Positions 1,051 through 12,930 of a stretch of DNA of 12,930 nucleotides are shown here, in pieces (position 1 is the first letter of the stretch; the number at the start of each line of letters is the position of its first letter). The position numbers and the translations under genes are program-made. The notes under the pieces were generated by a model that saw nothing but the letters and a program-made list of their open reading frames with translations, did no database searches and was not told where the DNA came from. This stretch comes from a virus. Lineage: Duplodnaviria > Heunggongvirae > Uroviricota > Caudoviricetes. The stretch lies in IMG/VR virus record IMGVR_UViG_2675903661_000019, positions 1 to 12,930 of that record, one strand, 5' to 3'.

Positions 1051-2712
1051 TTACACCCCGCTAAATTCTTCCAGTTTCTGGCGGTGGCTGTCGCTTATAT
1101 CAAAAGCAAAATCCTCATGCTCTGCCTGGAATGTACCAAACGCCATCAGCGCCGCTACGCTCGGGTCTATCTTGTTCGGTGATTTTTTCTTGTTCGGCTT
1201 GATATTGGCGTTCGCGTCACTCTGCATCACGACGTTACTCATCGACCAGGACAACACCGGATCGCCACGATGCACAATCACCCTGCGGTTAACAAAAACT
1301 TCGAACGATTTCGCCGCCGGACTGAATCTGAGGTAGGTTTGCGGGAACGGCTCCACCTCAAAACCAGCCCCCTGTAATTGCGTCCTGAGATGCGTGGCGT
1401 TCCACGTATCAAAGCCCACCAGCCTGATATTAAATTTCTCCGCATCCTGCATGATGTCATCTCTGATCCGGTCGTAATCAATGCAGTCACCTGGCGTTGT
1501 GCGTATCCAGCCCGCTTTAGCCCACTGGCGATAGACAGCGCGGTTTTTATTGGCGGGGTTCTGTAGCTGGAACTCCGGCAGATAATGACGGGAAACCAGC
1601 ATGATATTTTTACCGACCGGAAAGGCATAGCACACGCTGGAAATATCGCTGGTTGATGATAAGTCCAGCCCCGCGTAACACTCCTGCCCGTGTAAATCTT
1701 CCTCCGTGAACGTTCCGGCACACTCAGCCCATGCGCCGTTACCCATCCACGGGGTAGCCCCCTGGCACCAGATATTAAATCGCTTTGTCATCATCTCCAC
1801 CCATTGCGACGGAATACCCCGCGCTTTCTGGATGGTTGAGGCCAGTTTTTCACGATCCACGGAAACATCGATGTTAGGGTTAGCCTTTATCCACATCGCC
1901 GGATCATCAACCTCGTTTTCGTCGTCCAGCTCGTAAATCAGCACAAAAATTGAATCGTTGACCTCTTCGCCGTCCAGGATCTGGCAGCAATAATCATAGT
2001 GCTGTTTACAGGTTGAAACGACGTTACTGCCCGATGTGGTAATGGCAAATAACAGCCCTTCGGGACGTGCGCCCATCCCCAGCTCAAGCGCGGAATAAAC
2101 GCCGTTATCGGGGTGTAGGTGGTATTCGTCCACGATGGAAAGGCTGGGGTTTGTTCCCTCGATGGTTGCCGCTTTTGCTGCCAGCGGCTTTAACAGGCTG
2201 TTGCTTTTCGGGTGCATCACCTTGTGGGCCTGAATATTCACCCGCCTGCGTAACGGTCGGGATAAAAGGCACATCTGACGCGCATCATCAAAAACGATCC
2301 GCGCCTGGTCACGGCTCACCGCTGCGGTGTAAATATCCTGCTGCCCGTTCTCCATAATCAGAAACCAGTTAGCCAGAATCGCGGCGGTCGTGGATTTCGC
2401 ATTTTTGCGCGGCACTTCGATAAAGGCGCTCGTGTATTTGCGCCGTCCGGTGGCCTTAACCTTAAAGCCGAGGATGCACGCAAAGGCGAACTGCTGCCAC
2501 GGCTCCAGCTCAATGGGTCTGCCACGCATCGGCCCTTTTACGTGCGGGCACACCCTGGAAAAGGCAATAAACCGCTCCACAACCTCACGATCGAACGTGT
2601 AAAGGGGGCTTTCAAGGTCCGAAAAGTACCGTTTAACGGCCTGTTTCAGCCGTTTACAGGCCGGAATTTTGCCCGTTTTTACGTCTTCTGCGTACTTATT
2701 CCAGGCGGTCAA
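1051..2712 (-). CDS. terL: terminase large subunit (HK97-like, Terminase_1 type)
   Basis: 553-aa ORF; deviant Walker A-like PRKNAKST and Walker B-like LSIVDEYH near the N-terminus, long C-terminal nuclease-size region; apparent TTG start at 2712 with AGAGGA about 5 nt upstream; overlaps terS 3' end by 17 nt. Confidence 0.85.
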   Translation of the reverse strand: MTAWNKYAEDVKTGKIPACKRLKQAVKRYFSDLESPLYTFDREVVERFIAFSRVCPHVKGPMRGRPIELEPWQQFAFACILGFKVKATGRRKYTSAFIEVPRKNAKSTTAAILANWFLIMENGQQDIYTAAVSRDQARIVFDDARQMCLLSRPLRRRVNIQAHKVMHPKSNSLLKPLAAKAATIEGTNPSLSIVDEYHLHPDNGVYSALELGMGARPEGLLFAITTSGSNVVSTCKQHYDYCCQILDGEEVNDSIFVLIYELDDENEVDDPAMWIKANPNIDVSVDREKLASTIQKARGIPSQWVEMMTKRFNIWCQGATPWMGNGAWAECAGTFTEEDLHGQECYAGLDLSSTSDISSVCYAFPVGKNIMLVSRHYLPEFQLQNPANKNRAVYRQWAKAGWIRTTPGDCIDYDRIRDDIMQDAEKFNIRLVGFDTWNATHLRTQLQGAGFEVEPFPQTYLRFSPAAKSFEVFVNRRVIVHRGDPVLSWSMSNVVMQSDANANIKPNKKKSPNKIDPSVAALMAFGTFQAEHEDFAFDISDSHRQKLEEFSGV

Positions 2713-3052
2713 GCTCGTCCTCTTCTTCTGTTTCCGGTGGATTTTTACGGCGGCTTATCGGGTCAAAACCGAGCAAGGAGGCCATTTTTATCATCACTCT
2801 TTCAGCGTCGGATTTTGCGCTTAATGCGGGGTTTCTGCTCTCGCCGCCCTGACTGTTAACAATGATGAACCCGCGCGCCGCAAGGTCTGCAACGGCTTTC
2901 CGGTAAATGGAGTAGTTGACACAATACAGTTCCAGATTGCTCCAGTCGGCGGGGGTCAGGTCTCCCCGTTCCGCAAGCTGCCGCGATTTTTCCCGCCACT
3001 GCTTCACGGCGATATCATCCAGGTAGGCGGGGGCTTTCGGTGGTCTTGCCAT
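2696..3052 (-). CDS. terS: terminase small subunit (P27-like)
   Basis: 118-aa ORF directly upstream of and overlapping terL; N-terminal MARPPKAP and acidic C-terminal tail typical of P27-family small terminases paired with HNH and HK97-type TerL. Confidence 0.75.
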   Translation of the reverse strand: MARPPKAPAYLDDIAVKQWREKSRQLAERGDLTPADWSNLELYCVNYSIYRKAVADLAARGFIIVNSQGGESRNPALSAKSDAERVMIKMASLLGFDPISRRKNPPETEEEDELDRLE

Positions 3053-3120
3053 GCTTATTTTTTCGCCAGATTATTTTTCAAAAAATTCCCGTGCATAAAA
3101 ATTTGAGGAGGCGTTCGGTT

Positions 3121-3170
3121 CTGGGCGGGGTCGGGTTCGTCCTGAAAACTCCCCCCACCCCGTCCGGCTG
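3121..3170. other. candidate cos site region between HNH and terS
   Basis: GC-rich imperfect dyad GGGCGGGGTCGGG ... CCCCCCACCCCG inside the 289-bp non-coding gap between HNH stop (3342) and terS start (3052), the usual cos position in HNH-dependent cos-type HK97-like modules. Confidence 0.3.
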
Positions 3171-3341
3171 CCTCATCAGCGATTGCGGAAACATTCCATA
3201 ACCTCGCGGTCACGGTCGTTTAATCGCGTCGCTGTGATGCGTTCTGCGCGTCCTGATGCTTTATCTTTATGCCCTGTTTCCTGTGCCTTCCATGCGTCAC
3301 GCTGCCTTATAAGTCCACGGATAAGGCGGTTTTGTTCCCGC

Positions 3342-3782
3342 TCATTCATCAGCGCCATACATCCAGTTATTGCGGTTAGCGGCCCGTTCTTCCTCCTCAC
3401 GGAATCCACCCGCAGCACGCTTGTTTTTTGTGGACGGATCAAGCCATTTCGTTTTCTGGTTATGACACGCCTGGCACAATGGCTGATGATTCCACTCAGG
3501 CCAGAAGAGAACATCATTACCGCCATCGATTGGGATAATGTGATCCACCACCACGGCGGGCGTGTATATTCCTTTTTCCAGGCAATGCGCACATAACGGG
3601 TTTTTACTCAGATACATGGCGCGGTATTTCTCCCACTGCCTCGTATACCCTCGCTCCCTGCTGCTGCCTCTCCGGCTGTCCTGCTGCTGGCGTGCGCTGC
3701 GTCTGTGCTCCTCACACTTGCCGGACTTCACGCGCCTGTTGCAGCCTGGTTCTGTACATCGTCTTAATGGTTGCCACGGCAT
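3342..3782 (-). CDS. HNH endonuclease (packaging-associated)
   Basis: 146-aa ORF with Cys-rich N-terminus (CTEPGC, CEEH) and HNH core VVDHIIPIDGGND...LCQACHNQKT; sits upstream of terS as in cos-type HK97-like packaging modules; start overlaps stop of the upstream connector gene. Confidence 0.85.
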   Translation of the reverse strand: MPWQPLRRCTEPGCNRRVKSGKCEEHRRSARQQQDSRRGSSRERGYTRQWEKYRAMYLSKNPLCAHCLEKGIYTPAVVVDHIIPIDGGNDVLFWPEWNHQPLCQACHNQKTKWLDPSTKNKRAAGGFREEEERAANRNNWMYGADE

Positions 3783-4078
3783 CAGTACACCCCCACATCA
3801 CGGTAAGCCGTCCAGAGTGCGCCAATCGTCATGGGTACGTGTGTTTTTGCGTTATCCGCGACAATCTGGCGATTCTCATACAGGTGAGCGATAAACATCA
3901 TGCAGCCAATCTTTATGGCTGGCGTGAACTCCAGCCCGTCATCAAAGCGCCTGCCTATGTGTATCTGGCACGCCTCAAGCGATGCGGCAATGTATCCGCT
4001 GATTAACTGGTCTTCCTCGTCGCCATCGATGCGGCAATGGAGTTTCACTTCTTCCAGGGTGATAAGTTCTTCTGTCAT
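3782..4078 (-). CDS. head-tail connector protein, gp6-like
   Basis: 98-aa ORF beginning MTEELITLEEVKLHCRIDGDEEDQLISGYIAAS, the characteristic N-terminal signature of gp6-like head-tail connector proteins; ATGA start/stop overlap with the upstream gene. Confidence 0.75.
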   Translation of the reverse strand: MTEELITLEEVKLHCRIDGDEEDQLISGYIAASLEACQIHIGRRFDDGLEFTPAIKIGCMMFIAHLYENRQIVADNAKTHVPMTIGALWTAYRDVGVY

Positions 4079-4413
4079 TTTTCCGCGCCCTCACGACAAA
4101 GAATTTCAAGGCGTGTCCTGGCGGCATCCGGCAGCGGCTGCCCGATGATATTCAGTACACGCCCCGCCAGCGGCCCCGTATTGACCTTTATCCGGCTGGT
4201 GGCGTTGATGTCCTTCCGGTACCGTATCCAGATCCTTACGGTACCAATCGCCAGCTCTGCACCCGATGAAATGGCCTCCTTGCTGCTGACCATGTTCACG
4301 CTTGCCCAGAGTGTGTGACCGTCCTCCCACGTTTCGAGTATTTCGCCCGTCATGGCTCTGGTCTGTTTCAGGGTCTGAATCGTTACCCTGTCACGCAGTC
4401 GCCCTATGTTCAT
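4075..4413 (-). CDS. head closure / head-tail joining protein (gp7 or SPP1 gp16-like)
   Basis: ORF extends to 4455, but the internal ATG at 4413 gives MNIGRLRDRVTIQ..., the typical N-terminus for this family, and overlaps the portal stop as ATGA. IRYRKDI and LEILCREG motifs fit head-closure proteins. Start choice is uncertain. Confidence 0.7.
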   Translation of the reverse strand: MNIGRLRDRVTIQTLKQTRAMTGEILETWEDGHTLWASVNMVSSKEAISSGAELAIGTVRIWIRYRKDINATSRIKVNTGPLAGRVLNIIGQPLPDAARTRLEILCREGAEK

Positions 4414-5621
4414 TCCGGTTTTTCTCCCTCGCTGATTTTTACTTCCTGTTTCCATACCTGGCTGAACTCATCACCACCATCACGCGGAGACAACCCTTCT
4501 CGTTCGCGGGCTTCGTTCGGGCACATAACACCGGATTTGATGCCTCGCTCATAGGTGGCAAAGCGTTCGCCAGGTGTGGCCCGTAACAGGTCCGCGCTGT
4601 CAAACTCCACCTGATACCGGATACCAGGTACAGGCGAGACCACCAGCAAGGCGTTTTTTATCTGCTGCTCAAAGTTCGCCAGCCACGGGCGCATCGTCAT
4701 GGTGAGAAATGCGCGGCTTGCCTCGCTGAAATTGCTGTAGGTGCTGTTGCTGTATTCCTGCAGAAAAATCGGCGAGACGTTGAACATTCGGGCGATGTCT
4801 TCAATGGTGAAGCGACGGGAGGCCAGCCATTCGGCGTCCTGGTTACTCATGCCCAGCTGCTGGTAACTCATGCCCCCTTCAAGGATGGGCGTTTTTCCGG
4901 CGTTTCTGGCCCCTTTGTAGCGTTCCAGTGCGGCTAATGCCTGTTTGCCTTTCACGCCGTCCAGCCATTCGCCTGACGTGATAACCCCTGCCGCCATCAT
5001 GCCATCACGCATCACGCTCGCGCCGTGGCGTTGTTGGGCCAGCCCAAGCCCCAGCGATTCGCGGCAGATGGTTACAGGTGAGCGCCCCATAAAGCCGTCA
5101 TCCGTGGAGTAACGAAGGTGAAGTACTTCCCACGGTAAATAGTTGCGGGTGTTTCCGGTGTAGGCGTCAGTGATGCAATAGCGCCAGTTGTGTTCTCCTG
5201 TCTGCTCCACGTTCACCGACTGCGGCGGGTAAGGATGTAAAGCCGCCGGAAAACCATCACGCCCCCACTGAATCACCGCGTAAGCATTACCGTTTAACAG
5301 GCAGTGGCGGATCATCATTCGCTTAAACTGGTAGGGGGTTTGCCATGCGTTCGGGCGCTCGTTGAGGATATGATCGACCGGATGAGAATCAAGCCACTCG
5401 CGGGCCTCCTTCCCCTTCTCATTGCGTACCAGGTACAGGTAGCATGGCATAGTAGCCACCGCCTCAGAGATGACCGTGACGGCGTTCATGACGGCGGGGA
5501 GTGATTCCGCTGTCCCCGATGATACGTACTCACCCGCCCCCGTGTTCGATGTGCCAGCCAGCGCCATAAATTCATCAAGCGTCATGCTGCGCTGCTCTTT
5601 TTTTCTTCTGAAAGGCCACAT
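4410..5621 (-). CDS. portal protein (HK97 family)
   Basis: 403-aa ORF, size and sequence character of HK97-type portals; ATG at 5621 is 1 nt after the protease stop and preceded by GGGGGTG; lies between protease and connector genes. Confidence 0.85.
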   Translation of the reverse strand: MWPFRRKKEQRSMTLDEFMALAGTSNTGAGEYVSSGTAESLPAVMNAVTVISEAVATMPCYLYLVRNEKGKEAREWLDSHPVDHILNERPNAWQTPYQFKRMMIRHCLLNGNAYAVIQWGRDGFPAALHPYPPQSVNVEQTGEHNWRYCITDAYTGNTRNYLPWEVLHLRYSTDDGFMGRSPVTICRESLGLGLAQQRHGASVMRDGMMAAGVITSGEWLDGVKGKQALAALERYKGARNAGKTPILEGGMSYQQLGMSNQDAEWLASRRFTIEDIARMFNVSPIFLQEYSNSTYSNFSEASRAFLTMTMRPWLANFEQQIKNALLVVSPVPGIRYQVEFDSADLLRATPGERFATYERGIKSGVMCPNEAREREGLSPRDGGDEFSQVWKQEVKISEGEKPE

Positions 5622-5622
5622 A

Positions 5623-6180
5623 TCACACCCCCGCTAAATCCGCCCACCAGCGGCGATTATCCGCACGCGGCATTTTTTCGGGGTGCTGCTCATACAGGGA
5701 ACGGCGGGCCAGCTCCACGCCGGAATCGGGGTAAGCCGGTACGGATGTAACGGTAATTTCGTACAGTTCCGCCACCAGCACGGTGCGCACGCATGGATCT
5801 GTTGTGGTATCCCATACATCCTTACGGGAACGAAAGCCAAAGCTCATGCCGGATATATCACCACGTTTAACCAGTTCGATAACGTCACGCCCTGTGCTGG
5901 TATCCGGTGGGGTAAGTTCAAAGCGTAACCCTGTGTCGTCCTCTTCCAGTTTCAGCGTGCCGGAACGGGTGCGCCCCAGTAACATGCTGTGGTCATGCTC
6001 ATACAGGCCGCGAACGTCATTACCCGCCGCAAGCCACTCAGTAAACGCCCCCCGCTGGAATTTTTCGTAAAACTCCCCCCATAACAGTTCCGAAAGGTTA
6101 TCCCAGCGAACAACGTAGCCTGTAAGCGTGTTGCTGGCGCTGGTGGTGATTTCCGATGACCGGATTTCCATACTCTTCAT
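5623..6180 (-). CDS. prohead maturation protease (HK97 gp4-like)
   Basis: ORF is open to 6294, but the ATG at 6180 has GGGTGA about 8 nt upstream and lies after the capsid stop. Protein carries LYEHDHSMLLGRT and GMSFGF motifs typical of HK97-family prohead proteases. Confidence 0.8.
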   Translation of the reverse strand: MKSMEIRSSEITTSASNTLTGYVVRWDNLSELLWGEFYEKFQRGAFTEWLAAGNDVRGLYEHDHSMLLGRTRSGTLKLEEDDTGLRFELTPPDTSTGRDVIELVKRGDISGMSFGFRSRKDVWDTTTDPCVRTVLVAELYEITVTSVPAYPDSGVELARRSLYEQHPEKMPRADNRRWWADLAGV

Positions 6181-6206
6181 AATTTTTTTCACCCATAAAA
6201 CACTAA

Positions 6207-6224
6207 AGGGGCTTTTTAGCCCCT
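6207..6224 (-). promoter_or_regulatory. GC-rich hairpin between capsid and protease genes (possible attenuator)
   Basis: Minus strand AGGGGC-TAAAAA-GCCCCT followed by an interrupted T-rich tract (TTAGTGTTTTA), in the 55-nt gap between capsid stop and protease start. Confidence 0.4.
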
Positions 6225-6235
6225 TCTGTATGCTG

Positions 6236-7393
6236 TTAATCGTCGTCCTGTGGCAGTTCCAGAATCTTGATCGCGTTCGAATCCACCACGCCACCGCCTA
6301 AATATTTTTGCGTGAAAATTTTGATGAATCCTGGTTCTGTCAGGTTGTCCGGTCTGGTGCGAACACCTGTTTCGTGATCAACGATGTAGTAACCGCGTTT
6401 AAAGTCGCCCAGGGCAATAACGTTATCCGGCATAAACTCCAGATATTCGACCGGAAGGCCCAGCAACGTATCAGGATCACCCGCCTGTAAACGGTCACGC
6501 CAGATGTAATCACCGTTCGCGTTCTTCACCTTCTGGAGTTTTGCCGCCGTCGTGGAGTTAACCACCCAGACCGCGTTTTTGCGGTATTTTTTACGTAATG
6601 CAAATTTCAGGTCGATCAGCGGGTCCGCAGATGTCCACGCCAGAGATTCGGAAGGTTTAATTACCTGCAACGTACCAAAATCACGCTCTTTGTCGTTCTT
6701 CTCTGCACGGGGTACGGATAAAAAGCCTTTTGCTTTTTTGTCACCGTCGCCCACAACCAGATCGCTTTCTTCGGTTTCCGTGAAGGTGTCGCCAATCTCG
6801 CCCGTCAGCCATGAAAGGATGTCCACATCGGAAAAATCCACGATTTCCTGCGTGGTGCGCGGGTACGCATAGACCGGATACAGCTTAATGCTCACCTCGT
6901 TAATCTGCGGGGTGCTGGTCTGTTCGCGTGCCTTACCCTCTTCACCGTGGTTAACGGTCGCACCGCCAGCGGAAACAAGCTGCTTAAACTCGTTGCTGCT
7001 GATTTTCTTCACGGTACAGATGCGGCGCATGGTGGATTCATCCGTCAGCATTCGCATGATTTCGGTGTTCAGTTCGGGGATAACGGTATAACCACCATCA
7101 GCGGGAACGCCTGTACTCAATGCGCGGGTTTCACCTGTCAGAATGTAGTGACGTAGTTCGGCGGGGTCAGTGGTCTGGCTGTTTTTGCCTGGTTTACTGC
7201 GCTCTTCGTCAGCAACGGCCTCAAGGCGGGAGATGTCTTTATCGAGTGATTCAGCTTTAGCGCGTAATTCGTCAAATTTTGCGCCCTCAGCATCGTTAAG
7301 ACTGCGGTTTTCTTTTTCCGCGTTCTCCAGCATGTCGCGCATCTGATTTTTAATGGCGGTTTTCTGCTGGCGTAATTCGATTATTCTCGGCAT
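6236..7393 (-). CDS. major capsid protein (HK97 fold) with N-terminal coiled-coil delta/scaffold-like region
   Basis: 385-aa ORF; charged, coiled-coil-like first ~70 aa (EKENRSLNDAEGAKFDELRAKAESLDKDISRLEAVADEE) followed by a capsid-size body; ATG at 7393. Confidence 0.85.
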   Translation of the reverse strand: MPRIIELRQQKTAIKNQMRDMLENAEKENRSLNDAEGAKFDELRAKAESLDKDISRLEAVADEERSKPGKNSQTTDPAELRHYILTGETRALSTGVPADGGYTVIPELNTEIMRMLTDESTMRRICTVKKISSNEFKQLVSAGGATVNHGEEGKAREQTSTPQINEVSIKLYPVYAYPRTTQEIVDFSDVDILSWLTGEIGDTFTETEESDLVVGDGDKKAKGFLSVPRAEKNDKERDFGTLQVIKPSESLAWTSADPLIDLKFALRKKYRKNAVWVVNSTTAAKLQKVKNANGDYIWRDRLQAGDPDTLLGLPVEYLEFMPDNVIALGDFKRGYYIVDHETGVRTRPDNLTEPGFIKIFTQKYLGGGVVDSNAIKILELPQDDD

Positions 7394-7430
7394 AAAAAAA
7401 GTCCTGGGGTTAAGTAAGGAACTCCAGGAC
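7394..7430 (-). promoter_or_regulatory. hairpin plus U7 tract immediately upstream of the capsid start codon, sequestering the SD
   Basis: Minus strand reads GTCCTGG-(16 nt loop)-CCAGGAC-TTTTTTT-ATG; the only SD-like element (AGGA) lies in the 3' arm of the stem. Confidence 0.5.
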
Positions 7431-7483
7431 GCGGCAAAAACTCAACCGTTTTTCATAAGGGAATCAGCAATCGCACCGATCGT

Positions 7484-7531
7484 TTTCCCGCCTGGTAATG
7501 AATATTGGCGAGCACATTAACAGGCGGGAAA
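7484..7531. promoter_or_regulatory. 11-bp perfect inverted repeat with 26-bp spacer in capsid operon leader
   Basis: TTTCCCGCCTG at 7484-7494 and CAGGCGGGAAA at 7521-7531. Confidence 0.45.
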
Positions 7532-7603
7532 GTGGCCCCAGCGTCCTGGCACCACGGGCGAGAATAATCATGATTCAGTTCGGGTAAAATATGCCGATCC
7601 GCT

Positions 7604-7634
7604 CAGTGAACAACGTGGAACAACCACGAACAAA
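7604..7634. repeat. three helically phased GAACAA repeats upstream of capsid operon
   Basis: GAACAA at 7608, 7618, 7628 (exact 10-bp spacing); 17-bp core GAACAACCACGAACAAA (7618-7634) is identical to 215-231. Confidence 0.6.
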
Positions 7635-7640
7635 TAATTT

Positions 7641-7674
7641 ACAAAAAATAACAAAAAGCCGGATTGCTCCGGCT
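7641..7674 (-). terminator. intrinsic terminator after the 74-aa gene
   Basis: On the minus strand: stem AGCCGGA / TCCGGCT with 4-nt loop, followed by TTTTTGTTATTTTTT; lies 10 nt after the stop at 7685. Confidence 0.75.
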
Positions 7675-7684
7675 GTATGGGTGC

Positions 7685-7909
7685 TCAGTCCCTGATCCCT
7701 TTCAGAAATTCTATCAATGCATCTGTCTGTTCAGGATTTACCGCCAGCATTTCACCGGATAGCGCGCAACGAACAAAACCATGATGATCCTTTTCAATCA
7801 GCGCCCCCGTTTCCAGGAATGCGCGGTAATCAGTGATGTTCATCGTCTCCATGTTGTCAGCATGGTATTTATCACGCTGTTTTAATATCTCATCAAATTT
7901 CGTCGGCAT
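7685..7909 (-). CDS. hypothetical acidic protein (74 aa)
   Basis: ORF is open to 7987, but the ATG at 7909 has GAGGA about 7 nt upstream (MPTKFDEILKQ...). Stop at 7685 is followed by an intrinsic terminator. No family recognised. Confidence 0.5.
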   Translation of the reverse strand: MPTKFDEILKQRDKYHADNMETMNITDYRAFLETGALIEKDHHGFVRCALSGEMLAVNPEQTDALIEFLKGIRD

Positions 7910-8003
7910 TGTTTTTTCCTCTGTTGTGTCTGTTTGTTTCAGATAGTAACTATGCCGGACCGTGACGAAAAGCCAGTAGTGCGCCATACCATTTCAAATG
8001 ACG

Positions 8004-8028
8004 CAAAAAAAGCCGGATTGCTCCGGCT
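8004..8028 (-). terminator. intrinsic terminator after the 82-aa gene (near-identical copy of the 7641-7674 terminator)
   Basis: Same AGCCGGA-GCAA-TCCGGCT hairpin followed by a T7 run on the minus strand; about 24 bp identical to the other copy. Confidence 0.75.
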
Positions 8029-8050
8029 GCGTGGTGTGGTTCTGATATTC

Positions 8051-8299
8051 CTACTCAGCTAATTTGCTCAGCCCCATGTCTGCATAAGTGCGATTTACTG
8101 CATTTCTCAGGTCTGCGTAGTTCTCCGTTGGCGGCTCCGGTGGCCTCTGTGCCTTCCTGGAACATTCCAGCCGTCGCATCGTAACCTGATGCCGTTCCTT
8201 GTCTATCTCCACCAGTTGCATGACTTCACCCCATCGCGCCGACGCCCTCCGGTAAAAGCCTTTTGCCTCGAGTTCCTCCGCTATGCGGTCATGTACCAT
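8051..8299 (-). CDS. hypothetical protein (82 aa)
   Basis: ATG at 8299 is preceded by GAGGGGG, which overlaps the SSB stop codon (TGAGGGGGTGACGATG); ORF ends at 8051 and is followed by an intrinsic terminator. The longer track ORF (to 8419) would overlap SSB by 110 nt. No family recognised. Confidence 0.5.
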   Translation of the reverse strand: MVHDRIAEELEAKGFYRRASARWGEVMQLVEIDKERHQVTMRRLECSRKAQRPPEPPTENYADLRNAVNRTYADMGLSKLAE

Positions 8300-8309
8300 C
8301 GTCACCCCC

Positions 8310-8720
8310 TCAGAACGGAATACCGTCACCGTAAGGGTCATCGCCTCCCGCTGGTGGCTGATTACCCTGTGTGCCTGTGGTTTTGCGTCTGTTCCCGCCA
8401 GGACGTGCCGCACGGGCACTGATTACGCTGTCTGCAATAACCTGATAACCCTGCCGCGTTTCCCCGTTCTGTCCGGTCCACTGGCTGACCTGCATCGTGC
8501 CGGATACGCTGGCAACGTCGCCTTTTTGATGTTTAGCCAGGAAGTCGGCCTGCTTACCAAATGCGATGACCGATAGCCATAACGTAGCCTGCCCATCCTG
8601 CGCCTGACTACATGGCAACGATACCGCCATACGTGCCAGCGTCATTGGTGTGCCCTTGCTGGTCTGTTTTACCTGCGGGTCGTCCACCAGCCGCCCGTAA
8701 GCTGCTATCTGTGCTGTCAT
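8310..8720 (-). CDS. ssb: single-stranded DNA-binding protein (SSB-like)
   Basis: 136-aa ORF; OB-fold-like core alignable by eye to E. coli SSB (conserved Trp in SQWTGQNG matching RKWTDQSG), Gly/Pro-rich linker and C-terminal acidic tip DDPYGDGIPF resembling the SSB DDDIPF tail; ATGA overlap with the upstream gene. Confidence 0.75.
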   Translation of the reverse strand: MTAQIAAYGRLVDDPQVKQTSKGTPMTLARMAVSLPCSQAQDGQATLWLSVIAFGKQADFLAKHQKGDVASVSGTMQVSQWTGQNGETRQGYQVIADSVISARAARPGGNRRKTTGTQGNQPPAGGDDPYGDGIPF

Positions 8721-9031
8721 GATTCCACCTCTCCGGTTTTAACGTTGATGGTTGTTACCTGTTCCGCTTCGGCAATCTCCCGTTCTGTCAGCGTGGCAAA
8801 GTTTGCCGCCGCCGTGGTCATGAATGCGCTTATCAGGTCGGGATGTTCCTTCGCGTATCCTTCCCGCGTGTGGCGGTCTATCGTTCTGATTGCCACCTTT
8901 AAGGTGTGCTCAGTCATGTCTAACGCTTTATATTTTGGCTCTGTTCTGTCTCTGCGAATTTTGGTCATTTGTCGCCCCTGATTCATGTTTTCGGCTGGCA
9001 TGTTTGTTAAGTGATTTTGATGTATGCGCAT
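8717..9031 (-). CDS. hypothetical protein (104 aa)
   Basis: ATG at 9031 preceded by GAGGGGG about 9 nt upstream; first gene downstream of the iteron region; translationally coupled to SSB. No family recognised. Confidence 0.5.
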   Translation of the reverse strand: MRIHQNHLTNMPAENMNQGRQMTKIRRDRTEPKYKALDMTEHTLKVAIRTIDRHTREGYAKEHPDLISAFMTTAAANFATLTEREIAEAEQVTTINVKTGEVES

Positions 9032-9078
9032 TTATTTTCACCCCCTCGTTTAAAAAGTTTTTAGTTGTGCCTCCCCCC

Positions 9079-9302
9079 CCTCTACCCATCTACCCGAATG
9101 CTCATCATGTCAGTAATGGCGCGGCTTTCAGCGGGTAGATAGCTTTTTGGGCTCCTCTACCTGCCGTCTACCCTGCTACCTGAAACTGATAAAATCAGGT
9201 AGAAGAGGTAGAGAGCTTTTATTAGCCTTCTACCTGGCCCTCTACCCACTTATCATGTTGAATAATATGTATTTATTTCATTCAGGTAGATGGGGTAGAG
9301 GG
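9079..9302. repeat. iteron array, candidate origin of replication
   Basis: About 12 copies of CCTCTACCC / GGGTAGAGG-type motifs (core TCTACC / GGTAGA) in both orientations within ~220 bp, interspersed with AT-rich stretches (9250-9283), directly downstream of the primase stop at 9316. Confidence 0.7.
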
Positions 9303-9315
9303 CTTTTACAAAAAA

Positions 9316-11070
9316 TTATAAAAACGCGTCGCAATCGTCTGTTGTAATTGCGTTGGTCTGCGTTACTCCCTTAACTTTTCGCGTAATATATTCATGCCCG
9401 TAAACTTTCGCCGCTGGCTTCATGGCCTTGCTGAACTCAGCCACGTTTAGCGGTTTGCTCCTGCCTGCGTATGCCATAAACGCCAGATAGACGCGGTAAA
9501 GGCTGTTCCTGGTCGTGTACTTCACTGAATCGCCACCGCCCCCCATCATCAGGCCGCGCGCTTCCTCCAGAAAATTCAGGAACTGGCAAAACTCAATAAC
9601 CGGATCCGTCTGTTGCTTTATTGCCAGTGCTTCATCACCGTCACGCTGTTCCAGTAGTAAAGCCCGTGCCTTCTCAGGGTCGGTAAAGTTCGCCAGCAAG
9701 CGGCGGATAATAACGGGGATTTCAGCCGCAATCTTTTCCGGTAGTTCCCTGTCTTTTTCGGCCTCACTGACGATATTGTCGAAACGGAAAATCACGCGAC
9801 GACGTGCCACACCTCCGGCCCGTTCGGTGAATATCATCGGGTTATTGTTGGTCGCCAGCACCACCGCCCTGATTACAGCCGTGAAACGCTTTTCGTATTT
9901 CGGGTTAATTTCCACGGGGTCACCGCCCGTGATTTTCTTGATGCCCGTTCCTTCGCCTGTATATTTCGGCTGGTCAGCCAGGACGATAAGACGACTCCCG
10001 ACAACCTGCGCACGTCCACCAGCATCATCAAGCGATGTCATTTCAGCGCTTACCGTGTTCTGTTTCCCTGCCAGAAGGCTGGCTATGTGTGTGAATGTAC
10101 TTTTACCGCTCCCGCCGTCTCCGGTGGCCTCAATAAACATCTGCCAGTCGTACCGGTTCGCCATAATCATGTACAGCGCGGCACATATACGCATCATCTT
10201 GCGCGGGTCTTTTCCGGCTGCGTGCTCAAGCCATTTATGAAAGTTTGGCGCGTTATCGCGGATGTTCTCCCCTGGTGCTGGTGGCGTGTACTCAATACCG
10301 TTGTGCGTGGTGATCCAGTTCTCCGGCGTGTGCGGGGAAAATTCCCCCGTTTTCAGGTCAAGCGCACCATTGGCAAACGGCAGCAAATCGCCGGACGGCT
10401 CGCCCATTGGTTCGGCAATAACTTTTAACGCTTCCACGGCGTTATTGATTACGCGCTTGCTGAAAGTGGCCCTGTGCTCTGAATAGATCGCCACCATTTC
10501 GCGGCTAAGTTCCATTGTACTGACCGGACACCATACCCCGCCGCGCCATACGTGGACGATTTCACTTTCAGGATGTACGCAAATGCCATCAAAGCGCCCG
10601 GCAAGCAGCTGCGCGCGCTCACTGTCCGCCATCTGCGAAAGTTGTGCCTTTTGCTTTACCGGAAGCTCAATGACCAGACCATCAGAAAGATTCTGGCGCT
10701 CACGGGCCAGATATTCGCGCCAGTTCTCCACCTTCTGAACGTGCATTCCCTCAGGGTAAAAATTTGCATCCTGTACGCCTGCCGCCGCCAGTTTCTGACC
10801 AATCGCCTTGATCATTACTGGCTCAAGATGTCCGGCCCTGAATATGCGTACTGATTTTCTGCCTTCCGGCACAATTTGCAGCTTATCCAGTTCGGATAAC
10901 TGCTGCTCCCCAAGCCACACAGGAGGCTCATTATCTCCGGCCATACGCGCGTCATGTTCCTGCCATTGTTTTGCGTGTGACCAGGCATCACTACCCGCAA
11001 AAATAATGACTTCTGTTTCTTTGTGTTTTATGCCGCGTGACTGCTGTTTTACGTTCGGTGCCAGTTTCAT
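9316..11070 (-). CDS. primase/helicase, P4-alpha / D5-like (satellite Pri-Rep type)
   Basis: 584-aa ORF with central P-loop NTPase Walker A GDGGSGKST and Walker B-like LIVLAD, N-terminal primase-like region; ATGA overlap with the upstream 99-aa gene; iteron-rich AT-containing region begins right at its stop. Confidence 0.8.
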   Translation of the reverse strand: MKLAPNVKQQSRGIKHKETEVIIFAGSDAWSHAKQWQEHDARMAGDNEPPVWLGEQQLSELDKLQIVPEGRKSVRIFRAGHLEPVMIKAIGQKLAAAGVQDANFYPEGMHVQKVENWREYLARERQNLSDGLVIELPVKQKAQLSQMADSERAQLLAGRFDGICVHPESEIVHVWRGGVWCPVSTMELSREMVAIYSEHRATFSKRVINNAVEALKVIAEPMGEPSGDLLPFANGALDLKTGEFSPHTPENWITTHNGIEYTPPAPGENIRDNAPNFHKWLEHAAGKDPRKMMRICAALYMIMANRYDWQMFIEATGDGGSGKSTFTHIASLLAGKQNTVSAEMTSLDDAGGRAQVVGSRLIVLADQPKYTGEGTGIKKITGGDPVEINPKYEKRFTAVIRAVVLATNNNPMIFTERAGGVARRRVIFRFDNIVSEAEKDRELPEKIAAEIPVIIRRLLANFTDPEKARALLLEQRDGDEALAIKQQTDPVIEFCQFLNFLEEARGLMMGGGGDSVKYTTRNSLYRVYLAFMAYAGRSKPLNVAEFSKAMKPAAKVYGHEYITRKVKGVTQTNAITTDDCDAFL

Positions 11071-11366
11071 TTTTTACCCCTGAATCCGTTAATCATGGTT
11101 TTCAGCTTCTGGATGTTTTCCCGTGCTCTGGCGTTGCTGGTGGGCACGTTATGCGGCGCGGTCTGTACCAGAGAAAAATCACGCCGGAACTGATAAACAG
11201 GCATCACGCAATCATATTCGTAACCTTCACGGCGGTAAGTTACGCACCGTCCCGCCACACCCTTAATCATTACCGTGCCGCCGTACTGGTCGCGGTAAAT
11301 ATCACCGCGCGTAAATTTAGGGTGAGTGTTGCCACTGGCAGTTAAGCCAGAATATTTAAGTTTCAT
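11067..11366 (-). CDS. hypothetical protein (99 aa)
   Basis: ATG at 11366 with GGAGA about 9 nt upstream; stop overlaps the primase start; position resembles small early genes that precede primase in P4-like elements. No family recognised. Confidence 0.5.
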   Translation of the reverse strand: MKLKYSGLTASGNTHPKFTRGDIYRDQYGGTVMIKGVAGRCVTYRREGYEYDCVMPVYQFRRDFSLVQTAPHNVPTSNARARENIQKLKTMINGFRGKK

Positions 11367-11371
11367 TATTT

Positions 11372-11599
11372 TTATTCTCCGGTGTGGGGCGCTTTATTAT
11401 TTTCGATAATATCCATCGCCTTATCCAGTTCATCAATAACAGGCGATAGTAATGTCTGAATGGCTGCAAACATTAATGACGAAGATTCTTCGCCAGATTC
11501 CGGCGCTTCAATTAATTTGCCTAACAACGCATTCATTTCGCGCGCTTTAATTAATGCGTTTTCAGAATGAATAAGAACATCAAAGGGTATTTTATGCAT
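11372..11599 (-). CDS. hypothetical acidic protein (75 aa)
   Basis: ATG at 11599 preceded by AGGGGGTGA; acidic, helical-looking sequence; first confidently coding gene of the leftward early operon. Confidence 0.5.
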   Translation of the reverse strand: MHKIPFDVLIHSENALIKAREMNALLGKLIEAPESGEESSSLMFAAIQTLLSPVIDELDKAMDIIENNKAPHTGE

Positions 11600-12056
11600 G
11601 ACTCACCCCCTGGCGAATACGGGCGACAAAAATCAGATGTGTGTGCGGCAGCTGGGCGCGTGCTTCGCCTTCTGTTGCTGCCGTGACGGTAAAGAGTGAT
11701 CTTTGTTTTTCCTGGCACTGCATAAAGCGCCAGACAAAGTAAGGGCGTGCGGATACAGCCATGTGAAAGGCTCCCAAAGTGAAATTAAGGAGTCTCGCTA
11801 CTACGCTGCTAAACGGGGTGGCGAGACGTAACAGGGTTAGCAGACTGGCACTTTGGGAACCAGCGAGCGCAAAGGCTCCCCCGTTACGCCCCGCCATAAT
11901 GCGGGTATGGGTAGGCTTACGGACACAAAAAAACCGCATATCGGAATGTAAGCGGCTGTCCGCCAAAGTATTCAGGCTGCTAAACCCGGTCGCCATGTGG
12001 GCGACGGGGGAAGCATACAGCCCCGTTATAATTTTTTGCAAGCGGTTTTTACGCAT
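11592..12056 (-). CDS. candidate ORF (154 aa, very basic), doubtful; may instead be structured leader RNA
   Basis: ATG at 12056 with CAGGGG 8 nt upstream; 3' end overlaps the next start as CATGCATAA. Its last ~50 codons and the downstream junction are duplicated in the preceding segment (12049-12200). Composition (Ala/Arg/Leu/Ser-rich, few acidic residues) is atypical. Confidence 0.25.
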   Translation of the reverse strand: MRKNRLQKIITGLYASPVAHMATGFSSLNTLADSRLHSDMRFFCVRKPTHTRIMAGRNGGAFALAGSQSASLLTLLRLATPFSSVVARLLNFTLGAFHMAVSARPYFVWRFMQCQEKQRSLFTVTAATEGEARAQLPHTHLIFVARIRQGVSHA

Positions 12057-12330
12057 GATGTGACCCCTGACGAATACGGGCGGCAAATACAGCAACACAA
12101 CCAGACGGGCAACGGCTACGCGCTTCGCGTTCCGTCCAGGCGGTTACGTGGATGATTTGAGATTCTCCGGCACTCAGGGCCAGAAAACGCCAGATGTATT
12201 TATTCAGGTTGTGCGAGTCCCGCCCTTGCGGGTGTGTGATATGATTTCTCATAGCTACCTCGATACTTTCGCTATCGTTGGTGGTCAGAGGCTGCGAAAG
12301 GACGGCAATCCTTTTCAGCCTCGTTTGCAT

Positions 12331-12430
12331 TGAGTGATAAACACTCAGCTGGATTCCAGTATAATCACTAAGTGGAATCCACTTCAAGCGTTTTGTTTTG
12401 GTCTTTTTCGTGTATACTGGATTCCAGTAA
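12331..12430. promoter_or_regulatory. divergent overlapping promoters with three TGGAWTCCA palindromic operators
   Basis: TGGATTCCA at 12350-12358 and 12418-12426, TGGAATCCA at 12373-12381; plus-strand -10 TATAAT at 12360-12365 and TATACT at 12413-12418; minus-strand TTGAAG, 18 nt spacer, TATACT (rc of 12358-12387); palindrome GAGTG-ATAAA-CACTC at 12332-12346. Confidence 0.6.
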
Positions 12431-12448
12431 TCACAAAGGGAACCAGAA

Positions 12449-12628
12449 ATGGAAAGAGACCATATCAATAACAAATCACAGAAATTACAGGCTCGCGCCC
12501 CGCATGAAGTTGTTGAGGCTATGGAGCAAGTAAAAGAAACAGGCGAGAGCACTGCGCAATTTATCGTTACAGCCATGCGAGGCGAGATCAAACGCCGCCA
12601 GCGCCGTAAGGCCAAAGAATCAGAATAA
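12449..12628 (+). CDS. small ribbon-helix-helix-like DNA-binding regulator (59 aa)
   Basis: Not in the ORF track (below 60 aa). ATG at 12449 with AAGGGA upstream, TAA at 12626-12628. KLQARAP (beta strand), HEVVEAMEQVKETGESTAQFIVTAM (helix, G-x-S turn, helix) then a basic tail fits the RHH pattern; transcribed divergently from an operator-rich region. Confidence 0.55.
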   Translation: MERDHINNKSQKLQARAPHEVVEAMEQVKETGESTAQFIVTAMRGEIKRRQRRKAKESE

Positions 12629-12685
12629 TCACTATCAGCGCCGTGGTGTGAGGTACTACGGCGCATTGCTTTACAGGGCAGTACC

Positions 12686-12913
12686 ATGACCAACAACACA
12701 CTATCACCAATACAAGACACGCAAACGCAAGATGATGAAATCATCCGGCAAAGGCAGTCAGAAGCCTGCGCCAGAGTTGAGGAAGAACTAACCAGAACAA
12801 AAATACCACCACCAGCGCCGCGCTTAATGCCACCAGAAAAATTTGCCCTTGAAGATTTTGTCGAGAAATACCCACGGCGGTTAAAAGCCACTAAAAACCG
12901 ACCGCCTGGCTGA
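12686..12913 (+). CDS. hypothetical protein (75 aa)
   Basis: ORF downstream of the RHH gene on the same strand; weak SD (AGGG); Pro-rich centre. No family recognised. Confidence 0.4.
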   Translation: MTNNTLSPIQDTQTQDDEIIRQRQSEACARVEEELTRTKIPPPAPRLMPPEKFALEDFVEKYPRRLKATKNRPPG

Positions 12914-12930
12914 TAGCCTTGTCCACCAGC

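What the first reader, a model, noticed from the sequence alone, without database searches (positions are those of the whole stretch)
12331..12628. Genetic-switch architecture: overlapping divergent promoters, three TGGAWTCCA palindromes, and an RHH-like regulator
Seen: three 9-bp palindromes at 12350, 12373 and 12418 overlap the -10 and start regions of back-to-back promoters whose -10 hexamers overlap on opposite strands (12358-12363 minus, 12360-12365 plus). A 59-aa ORF missed by the 60-aa ORF track (12449-12628) has a ribbon-helix-helix-like layout. Inference: the small protein binds the palindromes and controls the leftward replication and packaging operon, in the role of a satellite master repressor or a Cro-like factor.
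Basis: partly seen in the sequence, partly recalled or inferred. Interest (0 to 1): 0.6.

Follow-up and report, generated by a model that had tools for sequence, protein, structure and literature searches.

The report
Small satellite repressor with three operators
A 59-residue DNA-binding protein of the ribbon-helix-helix type, annotated so far only as "YlcI/YnfO family", sits beside three copies of its probable binding site on the promoter of the replication-and-packaging operon of a capsid-forming phage satellite, which makes it a concrete candidate for the repressor that Gram-negative satellites of this kind were not known to have.

Summary
The three TGGAWTCCA palindromes and the 59-aa ORF are real. 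The window is a capsid-forming PICI satellite. The ORF is a conserved gene that RefSeq calls "YlcI/YnfO family protein", with no known function. About 170 related loci carry three copies of an 11-bp site (S-TG-N5-CA-S) at fixed positions. The TG/CA frame never changes. The central 5 bp is about 90% identical within a locus but only 35% between types. It tracks YlcI residues 12 and 14 (AMI 0.85). It does not track the flanking Icd-like gene, the downstream ORF or AlpA (AMI 0.04-0.16). A weak alignment to Arc places residues 12 and 14 at its base-contacting ribbon positions. Fold and profile evidence for a ribbon-helix-helix fold is weak but consistent. O1 and O2 bracket the -10 element of a conserved leftward promoter, and O3 abuts the -10 of the ylcI promoter. 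The most likely function is an island-specific repressor and autoregulator. It acts alongside a P1/P4-like C4 antisense-RNA lock, and AlpA can bypass or override it. The prototype PICI EcCICFT073 carries the same cassette. No binding experiment exists. I rate it a new member of a known kind, with interest 0.6.

The parts
12349..12359 (.). Operator O1, CTGGATTCCAG (core palindrome 12350-12358). It overlaps the last bases of the P_L -10 and covers the predicted start point of leftward transcription.
   Evidence: homologous site present and co-varying in relatives
12372..12382 (.). Operator O2, GTGGAATCCAC (core 12373-12381). It lies in the P_L spacer, directly against the -35 hexamer.
12417..12427 (.). 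Operator O3, CTGGATTCCAG (core 12418-12426). It overlaps the last bases of the ylcI promoter -10 and its predicted start point. In many relatives O3 is a degenerate copy of O1/O2.
12358..12387 (-). P_L, the leftward promoter: -35 TTGAAG (12387..12382), 18-nt spacer, -10 TATACT (12363..12358).
   Evidence: In 85 distinct relatives the -35 is TTGAAG/TTGACG in 70 and matches at 4 of 6 or better in 96%; the -10 is TATAGT/TATACT in 60.
12413..12418 (+). -10 hexamer TATACT of the conserved rightward (ylcI) promoter P_R. The -35 region (about 12390-12395) is poor.
   Evidence: TATACT in 72 of 85 and -10-like in 100%; the best -35 match is only 2 of 6 in 64 of 85
12338..12365 (+). It is present here but not conserved.
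   Evidence: -10-like in only 25% of relatives
12449..12628 (+). ylcI: a 59-aa YlcI/YnfO-family, RHH-like protein. Predicted ribbon is about residues 9-17 (KSQKLQARA), helix A 19-28, G-E-S turn 32-34, helix B 35-58 with a basic tail.
   Evidence: (NF041551, 72 bits against a cut-off of 30)
12638..12664 (+). G+C-rich hairpin after ylcI, terminator-like with a weak T tail. Read as protein it recurs downstream of ylcI in relatives of other site classes.
12686..12913 (+). Downstream 75-aa ORF of unknown function with a C-terminal motif KFALEDFVEKYPRRLK..KNRPPG. It is not coupled to the operator type.
12253..12349 (-). Structured 5' leader of the P_L transcript: a 5' hairpin (12347..12331), a long hairpin (12322..12288) and a hairpin next to the Shine-Dalgarno sequence (12277..12261).
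   Evidence: (11 of 13 predicted pairs keep pairing through compensatory changes in 22 loci), no Rfam match
12049..12252 (-). First gene of the leftward operon: a 67-aa Icd-like protein.
   Evidence: (NF033153, 65 bits)
11814..12018 (-). RNA immunity cassette: c4-a1b1 target element (12018..11969), isrK-like element with a terminator (12005..11927), and C4 antisense RNA (11901..11814).
   Evidence: C4 71 bits against GA 45; a1b1 45.5 bits against GA 46.7; isrK 36 bits against GA 50
11592..11790 (-). Second Icd-like coding region. It is the C-terminal part of ORF 11592-12098, preceded at 11781..11772 by a 10-nt exact complement of the C4 loop.
   Evidence: (49.6 bits)
1051..11366 (-). Rest of the leftward operon: DUF4222, D5-type primase, SSB, capsid, protease, portal, head completion protein, connector, HNH, TerS and TerL. 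This is the capsid-forming PICI gene set.

Best explanation
The region 12349-12628 is a self-contained specificity cassette. It holds a small ribbon-helix-helix-type repressor gene (ylcI) and three operators for its product. Inferred mechanism: YlcI dimers insert their two-stranded ribbon (residues about 9-17) into the major groove of each 11-bp site S-TG-N5-CA-S. Residues 12 and 14 read the variable central base pairs. Invariant residues, probably R16, S10/K9 and the start of helix B, hold the invariant TG/CA frame. O2 lies in the spacer next to the -35 of P_L, and O1 runs from the -10 across the start point. Their centres are 23 bp apart. Together they would keep RNA polymerase off P_L, the promoter of the Icd-like / C4 RNA / primase / capsid / terminase operon. 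O3 sits in the same place relative to the -10 of the ylcI promoter, so the protein would also limit its own synthesis. In many relatives O3 is a weaker copy, so P_L would be shut at lower protein levels than P_R. This protein lock acts on top of a P1/P4-type C4 antisense-RNA lock inside the operon. Induction needs AlpA, whose gene lies to the right and points leftward, converging on ylcI. The most economical link is that AlpA-dependent transcription reads antisense through ylcI and on into the operon, bypassing P_L and lowering YlcI. That link is speculation. What is shown: the sites, their positions, the conservation of the gene and promoters, the co-variation and the module boundaries. What is inferred: binding, repression, autoregulation and the route of de-repression.
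Against: No experiment shows binding or repression. The AlphaFold monomer did not form the N-terminal strand, which is expected without the partner chain but is still not a positive result. Foldseek found nothing. No RHH Pfam model reaches its curated threshold. The Arc alignment has only 20% hhalign probability. The operators and ylcI are less than 100 bp apart, so some co-inheritance is expected without any function; the case rests on the three sites changing together and on where the variable residues lie. P_R has a poor -35, so when ylcI is expressed is unknown. AlpA alone induces EcCICFT073, which has this cassette (PMC6092414), so YlcI cannot be an unbreakable master lock.
Confidence: 0.65

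Rival explanations
1. YlcI binds the same sites but works as a Cro-like or late regulator. On this view it is made only after induction, to turn early leftward transcription down or to time it, and it does not keep the island silent.
For: The ylcI promoter has a weak -35 in most relatives and could need activation. AlpA is necessary for induction and, when cloned, sufficient to trigger excision and replication (PMC6092414). The C4 RNA cassette could supply the quiescent-state lock on its own, as in P4 (PMC10111431).
Against: ylcI sits where maintenance repressors of PICIs sit: divergent from the replication operon, on the int side (PMC6092414). No second protein co-varies with the operators, so there is no partner repressor for a two-protein switch. 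The design fits a homeostatic repressor: two good operators on the target promoter and one, often weaker, on the protein's own promoter.
Confidence: 0.2
2. ylcI and the downstream ORF form a toxin-antitoxin-like pair. The RHH protein is an antitoxin that autoregulates its own operon, and the overlap with P_L is incidental.
Against: The downstream ORF is not conserved with ylcI: 28 clusters at 50% identity, many loci with no credible ORF, and AMI about 0.1. It matches no Pfam, PHROG or NCBIfam family and has only a chance-level PADLOC hit. YlcI has no toxin-binding extension beyond helix B, only about 10 basic residues. Two of the three operators lie on P_L, not on the ylcI promoter.
Confidence: 0.04
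3. Another factor reads the sites (AlpA, the Icd-like protein, the primase/initiator as iterons, or a helper-phage or host protein), and YlcI does something else.
For: PHROGs labels the Icd-like families 'transcriptional repressor'. AlpA is a DNA-binding regulator of these islands (PMC6092414).
Against: Site class is independent of the Icd-like cluster (AMI 0.15) and of AlpA (AMI 0.04-0.07). A host or helper factor could not explain at least 15 island-specific site types that stay identical in three copies within each island. The sites lie on promoter cores, not next to the primase gene, where PICI origins are found (PMC6092414).
Confidence: 0.08
4. The palindromes are chance repeats or by-products of promoter sequence and have no binding function.
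For: With one mismatch allowed, the motif is no more frequent in the window than in shuffles: 5 found against 2.9 expected.
Against: There are three exact copies within 77 bp against 0.10 expected in 12.9 kb. The positions are conserved and the three sites change together across genera.
Confidence: 0.01

Closest known systems
Phage P22 immI region: RHH repressors Mnt and Arc at the divergent promoters Pmnt / Pant (from established knowledge, not re-tested here)
   Same: A small RHH repressor gene is transcribed divergently from the operon it controls. The promoters are back to back, and short symmetric operators overlap their core elements. The ribbon aligns in register with Arc.
   Different: There is no second RHH gene (Arc equivalent) at the head of the controlled operon; the first gene is Icd-like. 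There are three separate single-dimer-sized sites 23 and 45 bp apart rather than one 21-bp operator bound by a tetramer. The element is a satellite, and the controlled operon carries replication and packaging genes.
Stl / Rpr master repressors of Gram-positive PICIs (SaPIs)
   Same: The position in the island matches: on the int side, divergent from the replication/packaging operon. So does the expected role of holding that operon off (PMC6092414).
   Different: From my own knowledge, Stl proteins are much larger helix-turn-helix repressors; the literature read here says they are inactivated by binding a helper-phage protein. YlcI is 59 aa and RHH-like, no antirepressor is known, and induction in these islands runs through AlpA.
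P1 immI (c4 - icd - ant) and P4 CI RNA immunity
   Same: The controlled operon contains a C4 RNA, its a1b1 target element, an isrK-like terminator element and Icd-like ORFs. Immunity RNAs of this kind have been noted in Gram-negative PICIs (PMC10111431).
   Different: From established knowledge, the corresponding promoter is under the C1 repressor in P1 and is constitutive in P4. Here a dedicated RHH cassette sits on the promoter. This protein layer is not mentioned in the PICI literature I could search.
Plasmid RHH regulators CopG, omega, ParG, and engineered ribbon-swap RHH factors
   Same: A constant helical scaffold carries a short ribbon that sets specificity. The YlcI family looks like a natural series of ribbon variants on one scaffold, with helix B nearly invariant (PMC3413123).
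   Different: From established knowledge, those proteins bind arrays of contiguous 4-7-bp boxes. Here the sites are isolated 11-bp units at promoter elements.
Heteroimmune repressor/operator cassettes of lambdoid phages
   Same: The regulator and its operators are exchanged as one unit between otherwise similar backbones. The flanks recombine freely, and there are many specificity types.
   Different: The fold is RHH, not helix-turn-helix. There is one protein rather than a CI/Cro pair. The elements are satellites.

Membership tests
NCBIfam NF041551 YlcI/YnfO family | Score above the curated cut-off of the family model | tested here: met
   72.3 bits against a cut-off of 30, E 2.4e-20, residues 9-50. 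RefSeq names the identical protein WP_000439004.1 'YlcI/YnfO family protein'. The name carries no function. K-12 YlcI itself is a distant relative in a different context, next to a lambda-like cos with no triple site.
Ribbon-helix-helix (Arc/MetJ/CopG) superfamily | Beta-alpha-alpha topology | tested here: inconclusive
Ribbon-helix-helix (Arc/MetJ/CopG) superfamily | Sequence signature: alternating polar/hydrophobic ribbon ending in R-x-P, and a G-x-S/T/N turn before helix B | tested here: met
   K9-S-Q-K-L-Q-A-R16-A-P18 and G32-E-S34. R16 and E33 are invariant and P18 nearly so. hhalign aligns residues 9-32 to Arc 6-29, with E 0.0011 but only 20% probability.
Ribbon-helix-helix (Arc/MetJ/CopG) superfamily | Profile match to a curated RHH family | tested here: not met
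   The best hit is PSK_trans_fac at 16 bits against a cut-off of 28.3. Distant relatives reach RHH_1 at E 4.5e-4 and PSK_trans_fac at 2.9e-4, still sub-threshold. The PDB profile search gives RHH ParB 3NO7 at E 0.19. I therefore write 'RHH-like' rather than claiming membership of a named Pfam family.
Ribbon-helix-helix (Arc/MetJ/CopG) superfamily | Obligate dimer whose paired strands read the major groove | not testable with these tools
Indirect support: the sites have a symmetric frame, their orientation can flip, and specificity co-varies with ribbon residues 12 and 14.
P22 immI-type Mnt/Arc switch | Second RHH repressor (Arc) encoded as the first gene of the controlled operon | tested here: not met
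   The first leftward gene is Icd-like (NF033153, 65 bits), not RHH.
P22 immI-type Mnt/Arc switch | RHH repressor gene divergent from the target operon, with operators on the promoter cores | tested here: met
   Coordinates; conservation.
PICI master repressor (Stl/Rpr) | Deleting it de-represses the island, and a helper-phage protein lifts repression | not testable with these tools
   Needs genetics. [quoted passage not shown]
Type II toxin-antitoxin module (RHH antitoxin) | A conserved, co-inherited downstream toxin gene and a toxin-binding C-terminal extension | tested here: not met
   The downstream ORF varies (28 clusters, AMI about 0.1) and hits no toxin family. The YlcI C-terminus is a short basic tail.
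Capsid-forming PICI (context of the window) | PICI-type primase module plus its own capsid, protease, portal, connectors, HNH, TerS and TerL, without tail or lysis genes | tested here: met
   Pfam hits. int and alpA lie beyond the window end but are present in relatives with the identical cassette.
Rfam RF01695 C4 antisense RNA (context) | Score above the gathering threshold | tested here: met
   71.1 bits against 45. The a1b1 target element scores 45.5 against 46.7, just below threshold.

The most novel reading that the evidence does not exclude
YlcI is the missing global repressor of Gram-negative PICIs and cf-PICIs. Its 15 or more ribbon/operator types would be immunity groups that let several satellites in one cell be controlled independently and let a resident satellite shut down an incoming one of the same type. 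De-repression would need no antirepressor protein. Instead, AlpA-driven transcription converging on ylcI would both silence the repressor gene and read through into the operon. Two same-genome pairs in my sample do carry different types: Xenorhabdus innexi L005/L008 and IMG genome 2630968576 L032/L089.
Probability: 0.3. Interest if true: 0.75.

Novelty: new member of a known kind. Interest (0 to 1): 0.6.

Why it matters
[quoted passage not shown] Later surveys describe the integration, Bro/immunity-RNA, replication and late zones without this cassette (PMC10111431). The cassette is present in the prototype EcCICFT073, and part or all of this variant's right-hand region (12253-12930) matches 665 of 5,426 complete E. 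coli genomes. The question can therefore be tested at once in existing strains. Separately, the family supplies a natural table of ribbon sequences paired with DNA sites on a constant scaffold. That is useful for working out, or engineering, RHH recognition rules, and for designing PICI-based delivery vehicles that do not cross-talk.

Tried and rejected
1. Foldseek of the monomer model against the PDB gave nothing useful.
2. Profile searches of PDB sequences with the close and distant alignments gave only E 0.19 or worse.
4. A C4-to-transcript duplex scan was dominated by self-pairing. The best non-self windows (-44 and -42 kcal/mol) lie within about 2 SD of shuffles. Only the 10-nt exact complement at 11781..11772 is reported.
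5. I looked for the same cassette at K-12 ylcI in DLP12. The protein there is RHH-like but distant, lies next to a lambda-like cos and has no triple site, so it is not the same module.
6. A PADLOC scan for a defence or toxin role gave only chance-level hits.
7. Literature searches on YlcI, YnfO and DUF3950, on PICI with ribbon-helix-helix, on PICI with AlpA and repressor, and on satellites with CopG, Arc or RHH found no paper on the function of this protein or on a protein repressor in Gram-negative PICIs.
8. The Icd-like protein, the downstream ORF and AlpA were each rejected as the site reader by the co-variation controls.
9. No record in the E. coli collection matches the whole window. The cassette is 100% identical in strains 2014C-3307 and RM9245, but their left-hand sequence differs, so the window is a mosaic relative to them.

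Full report

The sequence holds exact TGGATTCCA, TGGAATCCA and TGGATTCCA at 12350, 12373 and 12418. Allowing no mismatch, these are the only copies in the window. Dinucleotide-preserving shuffles expect 0.10 copies, and none of 200 shuffles reached three. Each core sits in a longer palindrome (CTGGATTCCAG, AAGTGGAATCCACTT, TACTGGATTCCAGTA). Sites 1 and 3 also share a longer direct repeat, CTGGATTCCAGTA.

The ORF at 12449-12628 encodes MERDHINNKSQKLQARAPHEVVEAMEQVKETGESTAQFIVTAMRGEIKRRQRRKAKESE, with an AAGGGA ribosome-binding site 7 nt upstream. The plus-strand site is TAAACA-16-TATAAT (12338-12365). The minus-strand site is TTGAAG-18-TATACT (12387..12358).

**2. Context**

The minus strand of the window carries the following genes:
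- TerL (1051-2712) and TerS (2696-3052)
- HNH (3342-3782)
- a gp6-like connector and a head-completion protein
- portal (4410-5621), prohead protease (5623-6294) and major capsid protein (6236-7393)
- SSB (8310-8720)
- a D5-type primase (9316-11070)
- DUF4222 (11067-11366)

This is the gene set of a capsid-forming PICI as described in bioRxiv 10.1101/2022.09.08.507074.

Relatives with the same right-hand sequence continue beyond the window end with a co-oriented alpA-type HTH gene and an integrase. The only genes pointing the other way are the 59-aa ORF and the small ORF after it.

The first leftward gene is a 67-aa Icd-like protein at 12252..12049 (NF033153, 65 bits). It is followed by a c4-a1b1 target element (12018..11969), an isrK-like element with a terminator (12005..11927) and a C4 antisense RNA (11901..11814, 71 bits against a gathering score of 45). 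A second Icd-like coding region comes next. The leftward operon therefore already carries a P1 immI / P4 CI-type RNA lock. Such RNAs have been noted before in Gram-negative PICIs (PMC10111431).

**3. The ORF is a real, already annotated gene of unknown function**

RefSeq annotates the identical protein as WP_000439004.1, "YlcI/YnfO family protein". It scores 72 bits against NCBIfam NF041551 (cut-off 30) and matches phrog_949, "unknown function".

A search of 5.8 billion proteins returned 108 clusters from Escherichia, Salmonella, Klebsiella, Serratia, Yersinia, Xenorhabdus, Pantoea, Pectobacterium, Citrobacter and other genera. An exhaustive profile search found only 94 representatives at 50% identity, so the family is small.

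In 146 loci there is no stop codon in the ORF, and pairwise differences per codon position are 0.235, 0.143 and 0.53.

I found no paper on the function of YlcI or YnfO.

**4. Is it ribbon-helix-helix?**

The evidence is weak taken one piece at a time, but it agrees.

- The AlphaFold monomer (pLDDT 85) has helices at 19-28 and 35-58. It does not form the N-terminal strand, which in this fold exists only in the dimer.
- No Pfam RHH model reaches its threshold. The most frequent sub-threshold hits, for this protein and its distant relatives, are to families I know as RHH-type (PSK_trans_fac, CB_ParB_C, HicB-type), with single hits to RHH_1 (E 4.5e-4), TacA1 and RHH_8 among other scattered single hits.
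- The best PDB profile hit is 3NO7 at E 0.19. That entry is the RHH domain of pCXC100 ParB (PMC3074162).
- hhalign aligns residues 9-32 to P22 Arc 6-29, using the Arc sequence from memory (E 0.0011, probability 20%). This places K12, Q14 and R16 on Arc Q9, N11 and R13. By established knowledge those are the base-contacting ribbon residues of Arc.
- The alignment shows the expected alternation, R-x-P and a G-E-S turn before helix B.

I therefore call the protein RHH-like and do not assign it to a named RHH Pfam family.

**5. The decisive evidence is comparative**

I collected about 170 loci encoding relatives from species genomes, IMG/VR and metagenomes. Nearly all have three copies of an 11-bp element, S-TG-N5-CA-S, at fixed offsets upstream of the gene. 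Site 2 to site 3 is 45 bp in 80 of 85 distinct intergenic sequences. Site 1 to site 2 is 23 bp in 53 of 85 and 22-35 bp in the rest.

The TG and CA frame is kept in 120 of 120 sites. The central 5 nt is 90% identical among the three sites of one locus but only 35% identical between loci of different type. In some types site 1 is the exact reverse complement of site 2, for example GTGTAAGACAC / GTGTCTTACAC, as expected for a symmetric dimer on a pseudo-palindrome.

Each site type goes with its own ribbon sequence:

| YlcI residues 9-16 | Site |
|---|---|
| KSQK[LVI]QAR | TGGAWTCCA or GTGGACTCCAC |
| KSQKMSAR | TGGCACCCA |
| KSQQLNAR | GTGAATCGCAC |
| KSQALKAR | GTGTGGCCCAC |
| KSKKLEAR | GTGTCAGCCAC |
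| KST-Q[LI]ASR | GTGCTWASCAC |
| KSQTIAAR | GTGTTGAACAC |
| KSQSVTAR | GTGTCTTACAC |
| KSQKISVR | GTGACGGACAC |
| KSQMTTVR | GTGAAATACAC |

The adjusted mutual information (AMI) between site class and residues 12+14 is 0.85.

**6. Controls for simple linkage**

- The Icd-like gene on the other side of the sites is not coupled to site class (AMI 0.15). One Icd cluster at 80% identity or more is joined to six site classes.
- The ORF downstream of ylcI is not coupled (AMI 0.09-0.16). One downstream-ORF cluster is joined to six classes.
- AlpA is not coupled (AMI 0.04-0.07). The ribbon scores 0.74 in the same subset.

The co-inherited unit is therefore the operators plus ylcI and nothing else.

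Neutral co-inheritance cannot explain why three separate short sites stay alike within an island while differing between islands. That pattern needs a reader encoded inside the unit. The variable protein positions are the predicted groove-facing ribbon residues, while helix B (AQFIVTAMxGEIKRRQR) is almost invariant. Experimental work shows that RHH ribbons are portable specificity elements on a constant helical scaffold (PMC3413123).

**7. Promoters**

Across 85 distinct relatives:
- The minus-strand -35 next to site 2 is TTGAAG or TTGACG in 70, and matches the consensus at 4 of 6 or better in 96%.
- The minus-strand -10 next to site 1 is TATAGT or TATACT in 60.
- A plus-strand TATACT overlapping the first base of the 9-bp core of site 3 (12413-12418 here) is -10-like in 100%, though its -35 is poor (2 of 6 in 64 of 85).

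In window coordinates, O2 (12372-12382) fills the -35-proximal part of the P_L spacer. O1 (12349-12359) runs from the last bases of the P_L -10 over the predicted start point. O3 (12417-12427) has the same relation to the P_R -10.

The P_L transcript would begin at about 12350. The sequence downstream of that point forms a leader with three hairpins, supported by compensatory changes in 11 of 13 predicted pairs across 22 loci and by G-U pairs that work only on the minus-strand reading. This independently argues that leftward transcription starts there.

**8. Most likely mechanism and its limits**

YlcI dimers on O1 and O2 would occlude P_L, and a dimer on O3 would limit ylcI transcription. O3 is often a degenerate copy, for example CTGTCCCCCAC against GTGTGGCCCAC, which fits autoregulation at higher protein levels. 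A complete island with a 100% identical cassette has no further site, so the regulon is this intergenic region alone.

Binding, repression and timing are inferred, not shown.

Published genetics limit the role. Mutation of alpA abolishes induction and transfer of EcCICFT073 and of the cf-PICI EcCIEDL933. Cloned alpA alone triggers excision and replication of EcCICFT073 (PMC6092414). EcCICFT073 carries this cassette: WP_000190587.1, ribbon KSQALKAR, sites GTGTGGCCCAC twice plus CTGTCCCCCAC.

YlcI is therefore a lock that AlpA can bypass or remove, not an independent master switch. Because alpA converges on ylcI and is co-oriented with the operon, read-through from the alpA promoter is an attractive route, but it is speculation.

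**9. Comparison with what is known, and novelty**

The design works like the Mnt side of the P22 immI region, with an RHH repressor divergent from its target and operators on the promoter cores. It occupies the position of Stl/Rpr in Gram-positive PICIs and is combined with a P1/P4-type C4 RNA lock.

It fails the test for a full Mnt/Arc switch, because there is no Arc-like first gene. It also fails the test for a toxin-antitoxin pair.

[quoted passage not shown] The zone model of PMC10111431 does not mention this gene. None of my literature searches found it.

The RefSeq locus tags of ylcI and its small neighbours in CFT073 (C_RS30120, C_RS30125, C_RS30800) are out of series with their neighbours (C_RS06940, C_RS06960). 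This suggests they were added in a later re-annotation, which could explain the oversight. That is an inference.

The kind of system, an RHH repressor with operators, is well known. The family, its role in these satellites and its many specificity types appear to be undescribed.

**10. Verdict**

- Observation: partly confirmed. The sites and the gene are real. The overlapping -10 hexamers are present in this window but not conserved.
- Interpretation: partly supported. Binding and control of the leftward promoter are strongly indicated by co-variation. "Master repressor" is not established and is constrained by the AlpA data.
- Novelty: new member of a known kind.
- Interest: 0.6.

Noticed in passing
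window 11814-12018 (-) and 11772-11781: A complete P1 immI / P4 CI-like RNA cassette lies inside the leftward operon. It has a c4-a1b1 target element (45.5 bits, just under GA 46.7), an isrK-like element ending in a terminator, and a C4 RNA (71 bits). A 10-nt exact complement of the C4 loop sits just before a second Icd-like ORF.
   Followed up: partly
window 12253-12349 (-): The 5' leader of the Icd-like gene folds into three hairpins (12347..12331, 12322..12288, 12277..12261). Compensatory changes occur in 11 of 13 predicted pairs over 22 diverse loci. No Rfam family matches. It may be an undescribed cis-regulatory leader or a stabilising 5' structure.
   Followed up: partly
L178 (E. coli CFT073, NC_004431.1) 8474-8653, record 1380473-1380652: The prototype Gram-negative PICI EcCICFT073 carries a ylcI cassette of a different specificity type (ribbon KSQALKAR; sites GTGTGGCCCAC twice plus CTGTCCCCCAC). 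Its locus tags are out of series with those of its neighbours, as if added in a later re-annotation.
   Followed up: yes
L174 (E. coli W24) 10120-10560: A second, unrelated Arc-like RHH ORF (..PPFQFRLDPDLREKMEKAQQQDGDDSLAAWIKRIIRKEL..) with its own upstream palindrome TGTGTATACACA and a downstream ORF sharing the FAPCAF..F motif lies in tandem with the ylcI cassette. It suggests that different RHH modules are interchangeable at this position.
   Followed up: no
L001 (E. coli 2013C-3342) about 8400-18300: A PICI with a 99.6% identical cassette is inserted inside the terminase large-subunit gene of a lambdoid prophage. This is the helper-embedded PICI configuration described in PMC10111431.
   Followed up: no
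L005 / L008 (Xenorhabdus innexi DSM 16336); L032 / L089 (IMG genome 2630968576): Both pairs of cassettes found in one genome are of different specificity types: TGGAGTACA with TGGCACCCA, and TGGATTCCA with GTGTCAGCCAC. This fits heteroimmunity, but there are only two cases.
   Followed up: no
window 12686-12913 (+): The 75-aa ORF after ylcI has no family match. Otherwise unrelated downstream ORFs in other loci share its C-terminal motif KFALEDFVEKYPRRLK..KNRPPG. Its function is unknown and it is not coupled to operator type.
   Followed up: partly
window 12362-12372 and 12428-12438: A second short direct repeat, TAATCAC(T/A)AAG, follows sites 1 and 3. Sites 1 and 3 are thus part of a longer duplicated segment with a 2-bp indel.
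   Followed up: no
L176 (E. coli K-12 MG1655, DLP12) 4252-4446: The K-12 protein that names the family (YlcI, b4589) is also RHH-like (..RNIRFPNQMIEQINIALEQKGSGNFSAWVIEACRRRL..). It lies next to a lambda-like cos site and has no triple operator, so the family name covers at least two different contexts.
   Followed up: partly
window 11804-11993: This stretch, which covers the C4 RNA and much of the isrK-like element, is 82% identical to unannotated DNA of phage P1 and Salmonella phage SJ46. It is the only part of the window with a P1 match.
   Followed up: partly
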